DNA of 64,000 bases from Bacteroidia bacterium. Lineage in GTDB: Bacteria; Bacteroidota; Bacteroidia; UBA8524. The position numbers and the translations under genes were made by a program. Numbering within the stretch: the stretch's first letter is position 1; every line of letters begins with the position of its first letter. The stretch is from assembly GCA_965222995.1 (NCBI GenBank), contig OZ244977.1, forward strand, positions 582,095-646,094, given 5' to 3'. A model generated the notes under the pieces. It was not told where the DNA came from. It worked only from the letters and a program-made list of their open reading frames with translations, and searched no databases. Below are positions 9,771-48,529 of the stretch, piece by piece.

Positions 9771-9809
9771 AAAAAAGCCCTTGGTATTATAATACCAAGG
9801 GCTTTTTTA
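9771..9809. terminator. Bidirectional intrinsic terminator between convergent genes
   Basis: The sequence is aaaaaAGCCCTTGGTATTA/TAATACCAAGGGCTtttttt. A perfect 14-bp-arm hairpin is flanked by an A-run and a T-run. Confidence 0.65.
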
Positions 9810-37745: not shown

Positions 37746-37783
37746 TTCTATAGTTATTATTTTATATGACTCTTGTTTTTGAA

Positions 37784-37821
37784 ACATTGTTGCAAATATA
37801 ATTAAATGCAACAATGTTGCA
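37784..37821. promoter_or_regulatory. Composite palindromic operator-like element (TGTTGCA half-sites x3)
   Basis: The sequence is ACATTGTTGCA-aatataattaaa-TGCAACAATGTTGCA. It lies in the divergent promoter region between the lipoprotein gene (minus) and the ECF sigma gene (plus). The core TGCAACA-A-TGTTGCA is a perfect palindrome also found at 43113..43127. Confidence 0.45.
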
Positions 37822-37957: not shown

Positions 37958-38515
37958 ATGATTAGTGATAGTGAACTCATAAAAGGATGCATAAACAACG
38001 ACAGGTTGTACCAAAAACACCTGTATGAAAAGTATGCCCGAAAAATGTTGACAGTGTGCCTATGCTACACTAGAGACAGTTATGAGGCTGAGAATATTTT
38101 GCAAGAAGGGTTTATAAAGGTATTTGAGAATTTAAAAAAATATAAGCCCGTAGGAAGTTTTGAAGGTTGGATTAGAAGAATAATAGTGAACACGGCTACC
38201 GATTACTATCGCAAAATGAAACGTGTGAAGTTTATAGAGGTTGATATAGATGAGGCAGGGCACAAAGTATCTACAATAGATATAGACCAATTTGCCACAG
38301 AAGATATAGTGAAGGCTATACAGAAATTGCCAGAGGGGGGGCGAATGGTATTTACCCTATTTGCCATAGAGGGGTATAGCCACGCAGAGATAGCTGAACA
38401 ACTGGGGATTTCTGTAGGAACATCGAAATCTCAGTATGCCAGAGCAAGAACATTATTGCAAACTACACTAAAGAATAGTGAGAGAAATTTTTTTTTAAAA
38501 CATAAAATACTTTAA
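37958..38515 (+). CDS. ECF-type RNA polymerase sigma-70 family factor (paralog of 2299..2865)
   Basis: 185 aa with FIKVFENLKKY, SFEGWIRRIIVNTATDYYRK and a region-4 HTH YSHAEIAEQLGISVGTSKSQYARAR. Confidence 0.85.
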   Translation: MISDSELIKGCINNDRLYQKHLYEKYARKMLTVCLCYTRDSYEAENILQEGFIKVFENLKKYKPVGSFEGWIRRIIVNTATDYYRKMKRVKFIEVDIDEAGHKVSTIDIDQFATEDIVKAIQKLPEGGRMVFTLFAIEGYSHAEIAEQLGISVGTSKSQYARARTLLQTTLKNSERNFFLKHKIL

Positions 38516-43004: not shown

Positions 43005-43039
43005 AAAAGCCCTATGCAACAGCAAAGGGGCTTTTTTTT
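43005..43039 (+). terminator. Intrinsic terminator after C1 peptidase gene
   Basis: AAAAGCCC-(15-nt loop)-GGGCTTTT with a T8 run. Confidence 0.55.
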
Positions 43040-43097
43040 GTAGCTCTAAAACACTTCGATATAGTAGTTACTCTGCATAAGTCAATTTTGAGATAGG

Positions 43098-43142
43098 AAA
43101 ATACACTATAAATGCAACATTGTTGCATTTATAGTGTATTTT
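43098..43142. promoter_or_regulatory. 45-bp near-perfect palindrome (operator-like) overlapping the promoter of oxidoreductase gene 43162
   Basis: AAAATACACTATAAATGCAACA-T-TGTTGCATTTATAGTGTATTTT has 22-nt arms around the core TGCAACA-T-TGTTGCA. The -7-like TATTTTTG at 43137..43144 lies inside the right arm. The ATG is at 43162. Confidence 0.5.
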
Positions 43143-43161: not shown

Positions 43162-44067
43162 ATGAGTAAACTATACGATACAATTATTATTGGTGGGAGC
43201 TATTCTGGTTTATCAGCAGCAATGTCATTAGGGCGGGCATTAAGAAACGTACTAATTATAGATGAGGGAAAACCCTGTAATATCCAAACACCTTATTCAC
43301 ACAATTTTATTACTCAAGATGGCAAAGCACCATTAGTTATAAAAGAAGAAGCTTTAGCACAAGTTTTAAAGTATAATACAGTTGAACTTAAAAAGGGTAA
43401 AGCTGTTTCAGTAGAAAAATTGGCTGAAGGAACCTTTAATATTATGAGCAGTGATGGGAAAGAATGGCAAACTGGGAAACTATTATTTGCTTCGGGAATT
43501 AAGGATATAATGCCAAATATTAAGGGATTTAAAGAGTGTTGGGGTATATCTATACTACATTGCCCTTATTGCCATGGTTATGAAGTAAAGGCCCTTGAGA
43601 CAGGAGTTTTGGCTAAAGGAGATATAGGATTTGAATTTACTAAAATGATAAGTAACTGGACGAATAAATTAACACTATACACTAACGGTGAAGATGATTT
43701 AAGTAAAGAGCAGAGAGAAAAATTAGAAACCAATGATATAATGTTAGACAAAAGAAAAATACAAGAATTTGTGCATGATAGAGGTAACCTGAAAAGGGTT
43801 GTATTTAAGGATGGAAACCATGTGGATTTAACAGTAATGTATGCCAATGTTGAGACAAAACAACATTGTGATTTTCCTGAGCTTTTAGGTTGCGAGTTTA
43901 CTGAATCTGGTCTTATAGAAGTTAACGGGTTTCAACAAACAAGTATTGCAGGGGTTTATGCCGCAGGCGATTGCGCTTCAATGTTTAGGTCAGTAGCTCT
44001 CTCTGTTTCATCGGGTTCGGTTGCCGGAGCAGCCATTAACCATGAATTAATTAACGAAAGTTTTTAG
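43162..44067 (+). CDS. Thioredoxin-reductase-like NAD(P)/FAD-dependent oxidoreductase with CPYC redox motif
   Basis: FAD motif IIIGGSYSGLSAA, a CxxC at ILHCPYCHGYE and a second nucleotide-binding motif GVYAAGDCAS. Confidence 0.8.
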   Translation: MSKLYDTIIIGGSYSGLSAAMSLGRALRNVLIIDEGKPCNIQTPYSHNFITQDGKAPLVIKEEALAQVLKYNTVELKKGKAVSVEKLAEGTFNIMSSDGKEWQTGKLLFASGIKDIMPNIKGFKECWGISILHCPYCHGYEVKALETGVLAKGDIGFEFTKMISNWTNKLTLYTNGEDDLSKEQREKLETNDIMLDKRKIQEFVHDRGNLKRVVFKDGNHVDLTVMYANVETKQHCDFPELLGCEFTESGLIEVNGFQQTSIAGVYAAGDCASMFRSVALSVSSGSVAGAAINHELINESF

Positions 44068-46454: not shown

Positions 46455-46485
46455 AAATACCCTAAATGCAAGTATGTTGCAAAAA

Positions 46486-47154
46486 TTAATCTGTGTACGA
46501 GTGCTCAGGACAATCTATTCGCAATTTATCCTTTGGCAATTTTTGCTTAAGAAGATTACAATAACCGCCACCTGTATTTTGGTAGTACTCGCAGGTTAAG
46601 CACATTCTTTGTAGGGTGATTATGCTACTTTTGGTTAATTTATAAATTAGCTCTACCAATGCATTAAATAAATCTTCCTTTTGGGTTTGTGATAGTTGAC
46701 TAATAGGCTTTTGTAAAGGGAGAATAAAGTTTGATGTTTTGTAAGCCAGCTTCTTACCTTTTGGAGTTAGTGTAAGTGAATAGCTTCTAGTATCTAAAGG
46801 GTCTGCATTTTTTTCTATTAGTTTTTTTTGTGAAAGAGCCTTTACTGCATCACTTATAGTCGCTTTAGTTAAGTTAAACTCTTTGGCCAGGTATCCCACC
46901 TTGCAGTATTGATTTTGTGTATGGAAGGCTAAGAAGATTAGTATTTGCATTTGTATAGGGCTTAAAGTATGCTCCTTTGCTTCATCCCAAAGAGCTACTC
47001 TAAATGCTTCTGAAACTCTTTCTAAAGCCACCACAATTTTGCTGTCTAAACTAGAGTTTTGTACATTTAAGTTAAAAGCTGTTTCATCCATAAAAGTAAT
47101 GCAGAGTATAATACCCTGCATTACAAAGTTAGTAGTCCTAACTATTAAAATCAA
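46486..47154 (-). CDS. MarR-family winged-helix regulator with C-terminal Cys4 (CxxC...C...C) extension
   Basis: The MarR-like core is LSPIQMQILIFLAFHTQNQYCKVGYLAKEFNLTKATISDAVKALSQKKLIEK. The C-terminus is RMCLTCEYYQNTGGGYCNLLKQKLPKDKLRIDCPEH. The alternative start MDETAFN lies at 47091. Confidence 0.7.
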   Translation of the reverse strand: MILIVRTTNFVMQGIILCITFMDETAFNLNVQNSSLDSKIVVALERVSEAFRVALWDEAKEHTLSPIQMQILIFLAFHTQNQYCKVGYLAKEFNLTKATISDAVKALSQKKLIEKNADPLDTRSYSLTLTPKGKKLAYKTSNFILPLQKPISQLSQTQKEDLFNALVELIYKLTKSSIITLQRMCLTCEYYQNTGGGYCNLLKQKLPKDKLRIDCPEHSYTD

Positions 47155-47158
47155 AATT

Positions 47159-47743
47159 TTAGAATTCTCCCTCGTTAATGTACGGATGGCACCATAACAG
47201 CGTAGTTAATGTTATGGCTTTAAACCATGCAGTATGCATAGCTTCAACCTCATCTTGGGTATGGCCTTTTTTGGCAAGAAACGGCTTTATGGTTGCTGTT
47301 ATTGGGAAGATAAATGCTACCATATATCTGAAATGGACTATAGGAGTAGCATCTACAGTGTCTGTTTTATTTTTCTTTATAGAGTGGTGGCGAAGAGCAA
47401 TTTCATGCTGGTAATTAAGCCAATCTTGATTATAGGTACGATTACATAGGTCTAGAATCCATTGTTTAAATCTTTCGCGTACTTTATTTAAGTAATCTTC
47501 ATCAGGTGAACTATTTTTACCAAAATAGCTTATCAAATGTTTATGGCTATCTACAAAACCATACCATACATCTAATACATCATCAGTTTGGTCTGCTAAA
47601 ACCACCCCTGCCTTTTTAAGTTGCAACTCGTCTTCTTCTGTAAATAAAACTGTTTGTTTAAGAAGGTCTAAATCTTCAAGTGTAATGGGTGAAGTAGCTA
47701 CTTGCCCATAAGTGTAGCCATGAATGTTTTTTTGTGTTGTCAT
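47159..47743 (-). CDS. Protoglobin-like stand-alone sensor globin
   Basis: 194 aa. Segments GYTYGQV, DVLDVWYGFV, IALRHH and FRYMVAFIFPITATIKPFLAKKGH closely recall archaeal protoglobin (~195 aa), which I am recalling from memory. It lies 4 nt upstream of the MarR-like gene. Confidence 0.7.
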   Translation of the reverse strand: MTTQKNIHGYTYGQVATSPITLEDLDLLKQTVLFTEEDELQLKKAGVVLADQTDDVLDVWYGFVDSHKHLISYFGKNSSPDEDYLNKVRERFKQWILDLCNRTYNQDWLNYQHEIALRHHSIKKNKTDTVDATPIVHFRYMVAFIFPITATIKPFLAKKGHTQDEVEAMHTAWFKAITLTTLLWCHPYINEGEF

Positions 47744-47757
47744 AGTGTTATAAGATT

Positions 47758-47810
47758 AATTTCGTTTTCAAATATAGTTAGGATTCCTAACTATATTTGA
47801 AAACGAAATT
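47758..47810. promoter_or_regulatory. 53-nt perfect palindrome (26-nt arms, 1-nt centre) 15 nt upstream of protoglobin start codon
   Basis: AATTTCGTTTTCAAATATAGTTAGGA-T-TCCTAACTATATTTGAAAACGAAATT, verified base by base. It is AT-rich and followed by TTTTTC on the plus strand. Confidence 0.55.
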
Positions 47811-47902
47811 TTTTCATCTTGAATATTACTAGCAAGAAAACTTAGTATAATAGTGGTTATAAGAGAGGTACAATTAATGAATACCTATGAAAAAATAACC
47901 TG

Positions 47903-48529
47903 CTACCGCTCTATCTTAAACTTAACTGTTAAAGAAAACAAATTGTTATATAAGCCAACCACTCTTTGCGATAGTGAATTATCTACAAAAACAGTACGCC
48001 AATCATCTCTGGCTTGTGAACGAATAGAGTATTGGTAGCGAAGCTGTACAGCCGTTTTTTCATTAATTTCATAAACTGCTCCCAATAAAAACTGGTTGTC
48101 GAATTTTTTAAACTGGTCTGTAAAATCTTGGTTACCCGTAAAGTCTTGTACTTCTGCTTTTAACAATACCCCACCCGCAAAACCAAACTGGAAACTAAAC
48201 TTTTTATATGTATATGCTGCAAATAAAGGAACCTCAATATAGTTTATTCTATACCTGTCAAAAGTTGATGAAGAATTGATAGTATCTTGGCTAGTAGTGC
48301 GCACTGCTCCCTTTTGTGAATATAAAAACTCTAACCCCCCACTCCATTTTTCATTAAAGGAGTAGCTAATCCAAAAACCACCGTTTAGCCCTACTTTGTT
48401 ATAACCCGATAGTCTATCACCATCTAGTTGAGAGAAATTTAAACCGCCTACGACTCCTCCATCAAACTTTTGGGCATTAACACCTAAAAAGCAAACAAGT
48501 GCAAAAAGTAACAGGCTTAGTTTTCTCAT
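47903..48529 (-). CDS. Small outer-membrane beta-barrel protein (OMP_b-brl/PorT-like)
   Basis: 208 aa with a signal peptide and alternating beta-strand pattern. It ends in an aromatic residue (F-x-I-E-R region). Its start overlaps the hutH stop (ATGA on the minus strand). Confidence 0.7.
   Translation of the reverse strand: MRKLSLLLFALVCFLGVNAQKFDGGVVGGLNFSQLDGDRLSGYNKVGLNGGFWISYSFNEKWSGGLEFLYSQKGAVRTTSQDTINSSSTFDRYRINYIEVPLFAAYTYKKFSFQFGFAGGVLLKAEVQDFTGNQDFTDQFKKFDNQFLLGAVYEINEKTAVQLRYQYSIRSQARDDWRTVFVDNSLSQRVVGLYNNLFSLTVKFKIER

What the first reader, a model, noticed from the sequence alone, without database searches (positions are those of the whole stretch)
47758..47810. 53-nt perfect palindrome immediately upstream of the protoglobin start codon
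AATTTCGTTTTCAAATATAGTTAGGA-T-TCCTAACTATATTTGAAAACGAAATT has two 26-nt arms that are exact reverse complements, checked base by base. It ends 15 nt before the protoglobin ATG. It is also the only intergenic space after the hutH-OMP pair. A perfect inverted repeat this long is very unlikely by chance in AT-rich DNA. The arms are too AT-rich for a canonical terminator stem on the minus strand, where the genes lie. A T-run follows only on the plus strand. It could be the operator of the adjacent MarR-like regulator, a 5'-UTR RNA hairpin controlling translation, or a cruciform-prone recombination site.
Basis: seen in the sequence. Interest (0 to 1): 0.6.

Follow-up and report, generated by a model that had tools for sequence, protein, structure and literature searches.

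The report
Repressor operator upstream of protoglobin gene
The 53-base perfect palindrome is built around a 19-base DNA site that is conserved across several bacterial phyla and is most likely where the neighbouring MarR-type regulator (with a four-cysteine tail) binds to shut off the protoglobin promoter; only the unusually long outer arms are peculiar to this genome.

Summary
Positions 47758-47783 and 47785-47810 are exact reverse complements (26-nt arms, 1-nt centre), against a maximum of 8-15 nt in shuffles.

The central 19 bp, TAGTTAGGA-N-TCCTAACTA (47775-47793), is a conserved site. It lies upstream of protoglobin genes, of the adjacent MarR-like gene, and of thioredoxin-like, cytochrome P460 and DUF2024 genes, in Bacteroidota, Chloroflexota, Acidobacteriota and others.

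Among 69 protoglobin loci the site occurs only where the MarR-like gene is present (23/35 versus 0/34). A motif-first metagenome scan recovered that regulator or protoglobin in 52 of 80 loci.

The site sits at a fixed position on the promoter. It shares its last TA with the Bacteroidetes -7 box TAnnTTTG, or fills the TTGACA-N17-TATAAT spacer.

I therefore read the core as the operator of an uncharacterised MarR subfamily with four invariant C-terminal cysteines.

The outer 17 nt of each arm are specific to this lineage. The closest relatives keep the core and the promoter-proximal flank only.

A 5'-UTR hairpin, a canonical terminator, a known RNA family and a dispersed repeat are not supported. 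The role of the extension is unresolved; it may come from hairpin-templated mutation or act as a read-through insulator.

The parts
47758..47810 (.). 53-nt perfect palindrome (26-nt arms, centre base 47784)
47775..47793 (.). Core operator O1, TAGTTAGGA-T-TCCTAACTA. This is the only part conserved across phyla (weak extra conservation of the flanking ATA/TAT, 47773-47795). Inferred binding site of the MarR-4Cys dimer.
   Evidence: high information content only in these 19 positions
47769..47776 (-). Bacteroidetes-type -7 promoter box TATATTTG of the protoglobin gene. It shares its TA with the last two bases of the operator. The inferred transcription start lies a few bases downstream (about 47765-47760).
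   Evidence: Conserved as TATATTTGAAAAC in L070/L071/L075/L076. TAnnTTTG starts exactly at core position 18 in 45 of 112 oriented sites. The consensus itself is from established knowledge.
47794..47810 (-). Distal outer arm (AATTTCGTTTTCAAATA on the gene strand). It is a lineage-specific exact mirror of the proximal flank. It is homologous to the relatives' -33 region but carries a 3-nt insertion and substitutions that make it perfectly complementary. On the plus strand it holds a mirror copy of the -7 box (47792-47799) with no gene to drive.
47758..47774 (-). Proximal outer arm: most of the -7 box, the inferred initiation region and the first bases of the 5' UTR. The first 13 bases (TATATTTGAAAAC with the box) are conserved in the closest relatives.
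47159..47743 (-). Protoglobin gene (194 aa, PF11563), the regulated gene
47126..47144 (-). Second operator O2 (gene strand TAGTTAGGACTACTAACTT), upstream of the MarR-like gene. Its 3' end plus TG forms the -7 box TAACTTTG (47131->47124), with a -33 TTTG 20 nt upstream.
   Evidence: identical arrangement in L070, L071, L075, L076, L003; box at core position 14 in 6 marR sites
47096..47124 (-). Hairpin GTAATGCAGGGT-atta-TACTCTGCATTAC followed by TTTTATG, ending at the marR start codon. It looks like a terminator or attenuator for protoglobin transcripts, while transcripts from the O2 promoter would start inside its 5' arm.
   Evidence: z -6.1; 3 of 11 pairs with compensatory changes in 6 sequences
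46486..47091 (-). MarR-family regulator with an invariant C-terminal C-x2-C-x10-17-C-x15-C tail (201 aa from the conserved ATG 47091; the ORF list and the public annotation start further upstream). Inferred to bind O1 and O2.

Best explanation
The palindrome is a composite of an operator and a promoter. Its central 19 bp (47775-47793) is the binding site for a dimer of the MarR-family regulator encoded two genes' worth of DNA downstream (46486-47091). That regulator has a C-terminal tail with four invariant cysteines. The site lies in the spacer of the protoglobin promoter and shares its last two bases with the -7 box TATATTTG, so a bound dimer would block RNA polymerase: repression by occlusion. 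A second, slightly degenerate copy (47126-47144) overlaps the regulator's own promoter, which gives autoregulation. By analogy with other cysteine- or Fe-S-bearing repressors of globin genes, a redox or NO-type signal acting on the Cys4 site is inferred to release the protein and induce the regulon. In other genomes that regulon also includes a small thioredoxin-like protein, cytochrome P460 and DUF2024. The outer 17 nt of each arm are not part of the conserved site. The proximal one is promoter and 5'-UTR sequence. The distal one is the ancestral -33 region rewritten into an exact mirror of the proximal one, most simply by a single hairpin-templated (quasi-palindrome) mutation in this lineage. 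That event would have come around the time DNA between the OMP gene and protoglobin was lost. Shown: the symmetry, the conservation, the co-occurrence with the regulator, and the fixed phasing with promoter boxes. Inferred: binding, repression, the signal, and the origin of the extension.
For: Conservation. The core is found with at most 2-4 mismatches upstream of protoglobin or of the MarR-like gene in loci from Bacteroidota, Chloroflexota, Acidobacteriota, Calditrichota and others.

Co-occurrence. Among 69 loci retrieved by protoglobin homology, the motif (at most 2 mismatches) is in 23 of 35 loci that carry the MarR-like gene and in 0 of 34 that lack it (Fisher p = 9e-10). Shuffled loci give 0 hits against 24 observed.

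Motif-first test. An exact-core scan of metagenome contigs gave 108 stretches. Of the 80 listed, 50 have the MarR-4Cys gene and 13 have protoglobin within 2.5 kb, 52 with either.

Regulon. The genes directly downstream of sites form a few families: protoglobin 35, MarR-4Cys 34, thioredoxin-like 34, cytochrome P460 9, DUF2024 5.

Promoter phasing. Information content is high only in the 19-bp core. TAnnTTTG begins at core position 18 in 45 of 112 sites. In non-Bacteroidota the core fills the spacer, for example TTGACA-N17-TATAAT in L018 and TTGACA-N18-TAAAAT in L005.

Regulator. All four cysteines are invariant in 43 of 43 homologues.

Lineage-specific extension. The closest relatives keep TTAGTTAGGACTCCTTACTATATTTGAAAAC but not the mirrored left arm. 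Their 59-nt MFE is -4 to -12 kcal/mol against -31 for the window.
Against: No binding or expression data exist; regulator-operator pairing rests on co-occurrence and position. The promoter boxes and start site are inferred from consensus and not mapped. In the window the -33 element is degenerate (TTTC, 22-nt spacing), so the promoter might lie elsewhere. The Cys4 tail could be a structural zinc site rather than a sensor, and the AlphaFold model is unreliable there (pLDDT 40-60). The neutral-mutation reading of the outer arms is weakened in two ways. First, perfect symmetry beyond the core is over-represented at such sites: 10 of 140 sites have an extension of 6 nt or more against 0.07 expected, although two of these are probably eukaryotic false positives. 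Second, another operator-centred palindrome 4.6 kb away keeps long perfect arms in three relatives through paired changes.
Confidence: 0.78

Rival explanations
1. Dual-use element. Besides being an operator at the DNA level, the full 25-bp stem forms in read-through RNA from the upstream co-directional hutH-OMP unit. There it acts as a terminator, an RNase III target or an insulator that keeps the repressed protoglobin promoter from being bypassed. The extension was selected after the deletion brought the OMP gene to within 159 nt.
For: It is the only significant structure between the OMP stop (47903) and protoglobin; the rest of the spacer folds no better than shuffles (z -0.74). The minus-strand hairpin is -32 kcal/mol. 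Four of the six longest bona fide extensions in other genomes lie 14-17 nt after the stop of a co-directional gene: L159, L120, L088, L162. Relatives have 0.7-1.5 kb more DNA, including a divergent gene, between OMP and protoglobin, and that gene is absent from the window.
Against: No U-run follows the stem on the minus strand (AAUCUUAU). Clear terminators in this window do have T-runs, for example 9771-9808 and 43010-43040. Internal sites are not significantly more extended than first-in-operon sites (Mann-Whitney p = 0.16). The second long palindrome (43098-43142) already has a canonical terminator just upstream, so long arms arise without that need.
Confidence: 0.2
2. Bidirectional promoter. 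The mirrored -7 box on the plus strand (47792-47799) drives a divergent transcript, either antisense to the OMP 3' end or a small ORF (47877-48038), under the same operator.
For: A perfect mirror copy of the -7 box and initiation region exists. In L095 one operator with -7 boxes on both sides sits between divergent genes. Relatives have a divergent 113-aa gene next to the operator.
Against: No credible plus-strand gene follows; the only ORF lies antisense inside the OMP coding region. The relatives' divergent gene is absent from the window, and the relatives show no -7 box abutting the operator on that side.
Confidence: 0.1
3. A 5'-UTR RNA hairpin in the protoglobin mRNA sequesters or exposes the start region and controls translation.
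For: The hairpin is very stable and ends 14 nt before the ATG.
Against: The conserved -7 box is inside the proximal arm, so the inferred transcript lacks the 5' arm. The closest relatives lack the long hairpin. The core is conserved in sequence across phyla without covariation. No Rfam family matches at gathering score, only sub-threshold generic miRNA-precursor hits.
Confidence: 0.04
4. A dispersed repeat (REP, MITE or foldback element), or an assembly artefact.
For: Long perfect palindromes are typical of such elements. Two metagenome hits to the core (L176, L100) are long palindromes in non-coding, probably eukaryotic DNA.
Against: There is a single copy in 64 kb. There are none in 184 fetched loci or in viral contigs. 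Both arms are homologous to the orthologous promoter region of relatives.
Confidence: 0.02

Closest known systems
MarR-family repressor operators (e.g. MarR/marO, OhrR/ohrA, SlyA)
   Same: A dyad-symmetric site of about 19 bp overlapping the core promoter, with a second site that autoregulates the regulator gene. The regulator has a MarR winged-helix domain (PF12802/PF01047) and PDB relatives that are MarR proteins.
   Different: The regulator carries an extra C-terminal tail of about 40 residues with four invariant cysteines, which has no Pfam family and no solved relative. The operator sequence gave no hit in the searched literature. In this genome the site is embedded in a 53-nt perfect palindrome.
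NsrR-hmp (Rrf2-family [4Fe-4S] NO-sensing repressor of flavohaemoglobin; from established knowledge)
   Same: A cysteine-liganded sensor-repressor binds a palindromic site over the promoter of a globin gene and is inferred to be released by NO or redox stress.
   Different: Different protein family (MarR, not Rrf2) and different operator. Metal or cluster binding and the signal are untested here.
ArnR of Corynebacterium (wHTH plus a C-terminal cysteine-bound [4Fe-4S]; NO abolishes DNA binding; represses hmp and narK; PMC12343034)
   Same: Same architecture: a MarR/ArsR-like winged helix, then a helix, then a C-terminal Cys-bearing sensory part. Same kind of target, a globin-family NO-detoxifying gene.
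   Different: ArnR has three conserved Cys, is reported only in Actinobacteria, and belongs to the SufR-like group.
Quasi-palindrome (hairpin-templated, template-switch) mutation, as described in E. coli and phage T4 (from established knowledge)
   Same: Clustered substitutions and a 3-nt insertion in one arm, all of which raise complementarity to the other arm and turn an imperfect palindrome into a perfect one.
   Different: Here it is only inferred from a comparison of five genomes. Selection for a hairpin would leave the same pattern.
Intrinsic (rho-independent) terminators
   Same: A strong stem-loop in an intergenic spacer downstream of a co-directional gene.
   Different: AT-rich stem (6 G-C pairs among the 20 stem pairs the scan counts; 25 pairs form in all), and no U-run on the gene strand.

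Membership tests
MarR-type operator | Dyad-symmetric site of about 16-20 bp | tested here: met
   19-bp core TAGTTAGGA-N-TCCTAACTA; information content is confined to it
MarR-type operator | Overlaps the core promoter elements of the regulated gene | tested here: met
   Shares TA with the -7 box TAnnTTTG in 45 of 112 sites. Fills the TTGACA-N17-TATAAT spacer in L018. The boxes are consensus matches, not mapped promoters.
MarR-type operator | A MarR-family gene is encoded next to the site and carries its own copy (autoregulation) | tested here: met
   Window O2 at 47126-47144. 34 sites lie directly upstream of MarR-4Cys genes. Fisher p = 9e-10 for co-occurrence.
MarR-type operator | Specific binding by the regulator, relieved by its signal | not testable with these tools
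   Needs EMSA or footprinting and reporter assays
Intrinsic terminator | G+C-rich stem followed by a U-run on the transcribed strand | tested here: not met
   On the minus strand the tail is AATTAATCTT, and only 5-6 of the 20 stem pairs the scan counts are G-C. The T-run is on the plus strand, where no gene ends.
Known cis-regulatory RNA (Rfam) | Match to a curated covariance model at gathering score | tested here: not met
   0 matches in the window at gathering score. Only sub-threshold eukaryotic miRNA-precursor hits at the hairpin.
5'-UTR regulatory hairpin | Both arms lie inside the mRNA, and the structure is conserved with covariation | tested here: not met
   The -7 box lies in the proximal arm. 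The long stem is absent in the closest relatives. The core is conserved in sequence. The start site is inferred, not measured.
REP/MITE-like dispersed repeat | Multiple copies per genome | tested here: inconclusive
   One copy in the 64-kb window, none in 184 loci or in viral contigs. The rest of the source genome was not available.
Fe-S or redox-sensing repressor of a globin gene (NsrR/ArnR-like mode of action) | Conserved cysteine ligands in the sensor part | tested here: met
   Four Cys invariant in 43 of 43 homologues from several phyla
Fe-S or redox-sensing repressor of a globin gene (NsrR/ArnR-like mode of action) | Cluster or metal binding, and loss of DNA binding on exposure to NO or oxidant | not testable with these tools
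   The structure model of the tail has low confidence. Biochemistry is required.

The most novel reading that the evidence does not exclude
The palindrome marks a previously undescribed regulon that spans several phyla. A MarR subfamily with a Cys4 (possibly Fe-S) sensor tail would repress protoglobin, a CPVC thioredoxin-like protein, cytochrome P460 and DUF2024 through one almost invariant 19-bp operator. That would tie bacterial protoglobins to NO, hydroxylamine or redox stress. In addition, operator-centred palindromes in this clade would be actively kept long and perfect, whether as a cruciform or hairpin with its own function or through recurrent hairpin-templated conversion.
Probability: 0.45. 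Interest if true: 0.7.

Novelty: new member of a known kind. Interest (0 to 1): 0.5.

Why it matters
The physiological role of bacterial protoglobins is unknown. This finding supplies a conserved operator, a dedicated regulator with a candidate sensor site, and a short list of co-regulated genes (cytochrome P460, a thioredoxin-like protein, DUF2024). Together these give a testable hypothesis: NO, hydroxylamine or redox stress is the inducing signal. The operator can also be scanned in any genome to read out the regulon. The palindrome as such is an ordinary repressor site. Its exceptional length is an illustration, not yet an explanation, of how operator palindromes can grow.

Tried and rejected
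- Rfam at gathering score on the whole window, and at E <= 1 on 47000-48000: nothing real, only generic miRNA-precursor hairpin hits.
- tRNA/tmRNA scan: none.
- Exact look-up of the window's protoglobin to find the source contig: not on record. The source genome is not in genome contigs; the best hit is 72% identical. A whole-genome copy count was therefore impossible.
- Searches for other copies of the arm or outer arm in the window, the 184 loci and viral contigs: none.
- Literature searches gave no description of this regulator or operator. Searched: protoglobin+MarR, protoglobin+P460, protoglobin+regulator+NO, MarR+Fe-S, and the motif strings.
- PDB sequence search: only ordinary MarR proteins covering the winged-helix part.
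- AlphaFold model of the regulator: mean pLDDT 65, C-terminal tail 40-60. I judged it too poor for a fold search, so none was run.
- Test of whether extended palindromes mark internal sites after a co-directional gene: not significant, p = 0.16.
- The sigma-70 scan hit (ATGAAA-16-TATAGT) was set aside. The organism shows Bacteroidetes-type boxes, and promoter-like hits in the region were fewer than in shuffles.
- The two longest palindromes retrieved by the core scan (L176, L100) were rejected as probable eukaryotic false positives. A palindromic query enriches for centres of long palindromes.

Full report
**Observation.** The window sequence at 47758-47810 reads AATTTCGTTTTCAAATATAGTTAGGA-T-TCCTAACTATATTTGAAAACGAAATT. 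The repeat finder reports arms 47758-47783 and 47785-47810, 26 nt, 100% complementary, one base between them. It is the longest inverted repeat in the 64-kb window. Sixty dinucleotide-preserving shuffles gave longest perfect arms of 8-15 nt, and base composition predicts about 1e-9 such arms. Neither the arm nor its outer 17 nt recur in the window. As RNA the hairpin is worth -32.1 kcal/mol on the minus strand and -35.8 on the plus strand; as DNA it is worth -23.6, with z-scores of -10 to -12. Fourteen nucleotides, not 15, separate it from the protoglobin ATG. It is also not the only intergenic spacer in the gene row.

**Context.** On the minus strand the genes are as follows:
- hutH (50001-48526) and an OMP beta-barrel protein (48529-47903);
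- a 159-nt spacer that holds the palindrome;
- protoglobin (47743-47159, PF11563);
- a MarR-family protein (to 46486);
- a TonB-dependent receptor (46454-44070).

A TrxB-like flavoprotein (43162-44067) is convergent on the plus strand. The genome is Bacteroidota-like: it has Por_Secre_tail proteins and TAnnTTTG boxes, and its closest relatives are Chitinophagales and Saprospiraceae MAGs. The source genome itself could not be retrieved.

**What the core is.** I fetched 69 loci by protoglobin homology. The MarR-like gene is linked to protoglobin in 35 of them, across Bacteroidota, Chloroflexota, Acidobacteriota, Calditrichota and others. A search for inverted repeats upstream of these protoglobin genes repeatedly returned the same sequence, TAGTTAGGA-N-TCCTAACTA. 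That is the centre of the window's palindrome.

Scanning all loci for this 19-mer found sites upstream of protoglobin, directly upstream of (or overlapping) the MarR-like start codon, and between the two genes. With at most 2 mismatches the motif is in 23 of 35 loci that carry the MarR-like gene and in 0 of 34 that lack it (Fisher p = 9e-10). Shuffled loci give no hits against 24 observed. Most of the 12 MarR-positive, motif-negative loci have a site at 3-4 mismatches.

As an independent, motif-first test I scanned the metagenome collection for the exact core. Of the 80 listed loci, 50 carry the MarR-like gene and 13 carry protoglobin within 2.5 kb, 52 with either. Many of the others are short contigs or have the site at a contig end. 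Two (L176, L100) are long palindromes in non-coding, probably eukaryotic DNA. That is an expected kind of false positive for a palindromic query.

**Regulon.** Clustering the ORFs that start within 160 nt of a site gives the following families:

| Family | Members |
|---|---|
| protoglobin | 35 |
| MarR-like regulator | 34 |
| 77-aa CPVC thioredoxin-like protein | 34 |
| cytochrome P460 (PF16694) | 9 |
| unknown, about 206 aa | 8 |
| unknown, about 113 aa (divergent) | 6 |
| DUF2024 (PF09630) | 5 |

None of the accessory members is in the window.

**Phasing with the promoter.** Information content is high only in the 19 core positions, with weak ATA/TAT flanks. In 45 of 112 oriented sites the Bacteroidetes -7 box TAnnTTTG begins exactly at core position 18, so it shares the operator's last TA. 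In six marR sites it begins at position 14. In other phyla the core fills the spacer of sigma-70 promoters, for example cTTGACA-TAGTTAGGATTCCTAAC-TATAAT in L018 and TTGACA-N18-TAAAAT in L005. In Chloroflexota it follows a -10-like box and runs into the ATG.

In the window the box is TATATTTG (47776->47769). The four closest relatives (L070, L071, L075, L076; protoglobin 72-75% identical) all keep TTAGTTAGGACTCCTTACTATATTTGAAAAC in front of the gene. With the box inside the proximal arm, the transcript is inferred to start around 47765-47760 and to contain only the last few palindrome bases. The -33/-7 consensus is established knowledge for Bacteroidetes promoters. The start site is inference.

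**Regulator.** The protein has a MarR winged helix and ordinary MarR proteins as PDB relatives. It has an extra C-terminal tail in which four cysteines (C-x2-C-x10-17-C-x15-C) are invariant in all 43 homologues extracted from the loci. Public annotation calls it only 'MarR family'. No paper in the searchable library links protoglobin to such a regulator or contains the motif. The structure model is poor in the tail.

The closest functional parallels are NsrR-hmp (established knowledge) and ArnR of Corynebacterium. ArnR is a winged-helix protein with a C-terminal cysteine-bound [4Fe-4S] cluster that represses hmp and loses DNA binding with NO (PMC12343034). The idea that the Cys4 tail senses NO or redox is inferred from this analogy and from the P460 and thioredoxin-like regulon members.

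**The outer arms.** They are not conserved. In alignment A1 the window's distal arm is homologous to the relatives' -33 region (…ATGAAA(A/G)TTTATTT(G/T)CATT|TAGTTAGGA). It carries a 3-nt insertion and substitutions, every one of which makes it the exact complement of the conserved proximal flank. Relatives have only a 9-nt core stem with one persistent mismatch. Their 59-nt folding energies are -4 to -12 kcal/mol against -31 for the window. The relatives' -33 TTTG (21-nt spacing) is replaced in the window by TTTC at 22 nt.

Relatives also have 0.7-1.5 kb, including a divergent 113-aa gene, between OMP and protoglobin. The window has 159 nt and no trace of that gene. The simplest reading is a hairpin-templated (quasi-palindrome) mutation in this lineage, possibly linked to that deletion.

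I cannot exclude selection for the long stem, for three reasons:
- Perfect symmetry beyond the core is over-represented among sites: an extension of 6 nt or more in 10 of 140 sites against 0.07 expected.
- The bona fide long cases (L159, L120, L088, L162) lie 14-17 nt after the stop of a co-directional gene, which hints at a hairpin role in read-through RNA. The contrast with first-in-operon sites is not significant, however (p = 0.16).
- The palindrome is the only strong structure in the OMP-protoglobin spacer.

Against a terminator role, the gene strand has no U-run, whereas clear terminators in this window do.

**Verdict.**
- The 5'-UTR hairpin idea is not supported.
- A dispersed repeat is not supported within the data available.
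- The cruciform or recombination idea survives only as a possible origin of the extension.
- As a kind of element it is an ordinary repressor operator. What is new is the subfamily of regulator, the very conserved site and the regulon it reveals for protoglobin.

Noticed in passing
window 47096-47144 (minus strand): A second operator O2 (TAGTTAGGACTACTAACTT) forms the -7 box TAACTTTG with the next TG. It is followed at once by a hairpin plus TTTTATG that ends at the marR start. The hairpin shows compensatory changes in relatives (GTAATGC/GCATTAC, GTACTGC/GCAGTAC, GTAGTGC/GCACTA). It looks like a terminator or attenuator for protoglobin transcripts that transcripts from the O2 promoter would escape, because they start inside its 5' arm.
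   Followed up: partly
window 43098-43142; also L071 5212-5258, L070 4811-4847: A second long perfect palindrome (22-nt arms) lies 19 nt upstream of the TrxB-like gene. It is centred on a different box, aaaTGCAACAnTGTTGCAttt, and its right end overlaps the -7 box TATTTTTG. Relatives also have perfect 18-23-nt arms, but with different outer sequences changed on both arms (CACT/AGTG, GTTC/GAAC, CATT/AATG). A canonical terminator (43010-43040) lies just upstream, so a terminator role does not explain it.
   Followed up: partly
window 46467-46481, 37780-37794, 37807-37821: The same TGCAACA-N-TGTTGCA box sits in the 31-nt gap before the TonB-dependent receptor (conserved in L003, L070, L071, L075, L076). 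It also occurs twice upstream of an ECF sigma factor gene (37958-38515). So the receptor has its own promoter and a different, unidentified regulator shared with the TrxB-like gene. The listed TTG start of the receptor (46454) coincides with the TTG of the -7 box TATTTTTG, so the true start is probably a few codons downstream.
   Followed up: partly
window 46486-47154: The mechanical ORF (222 aa, TTG) and the public protein (211 aa, P0121) start upstream of the conserved hairpin. Relatives (203-204 aa) and all tblastn alignments support the ATG at 47091 (MDETAF...), giving 201 aa.
   Followed up: yes
L037-L057, L060-L063 (Nitrosomonas loci), about 36-38 nt upstream of protoglobin: Nitrosomonas protoglobin genes lack the MarR-4Cys gene within 4 kb and lack the core motif. 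They carry a different conserved inverted repeat, CATAACTAAC-N10-GTTAGTTATG, which suggests another regulator for the same gene family.
   Followed up: no
L007, L008, L009, L031: Some Chitinophagales-type loci carry two tandem protoglobin paralogues (about 66% and about 52% identity to the window protein) before the MarR-4Cys gene.
   Followed up: no
L176 429-447, L100 778-796: Two metagenome hits to the exact core are centres of much longer perfect palindromes (arms of at least 37 and 31 nt). They lie in DNA without bacterial-looking ORFs and with no MarR or protoglobin, so they are probably eukaryotic foldback sequences. This is a reminder that a palindromic query enriches for long palindromes.
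   Followed up: partly
window 9771-9808: A 38-nt perfect palindrome, AAAAAAGCCCTTGGTATTA|TAATACCAAGGGCTTTTTT, has the form of a bidirectional intrinsic terminator (A-run, G+C-rich stem, T-run). It served as an internal example of what terminators look like in this genome.
   Followed up: no
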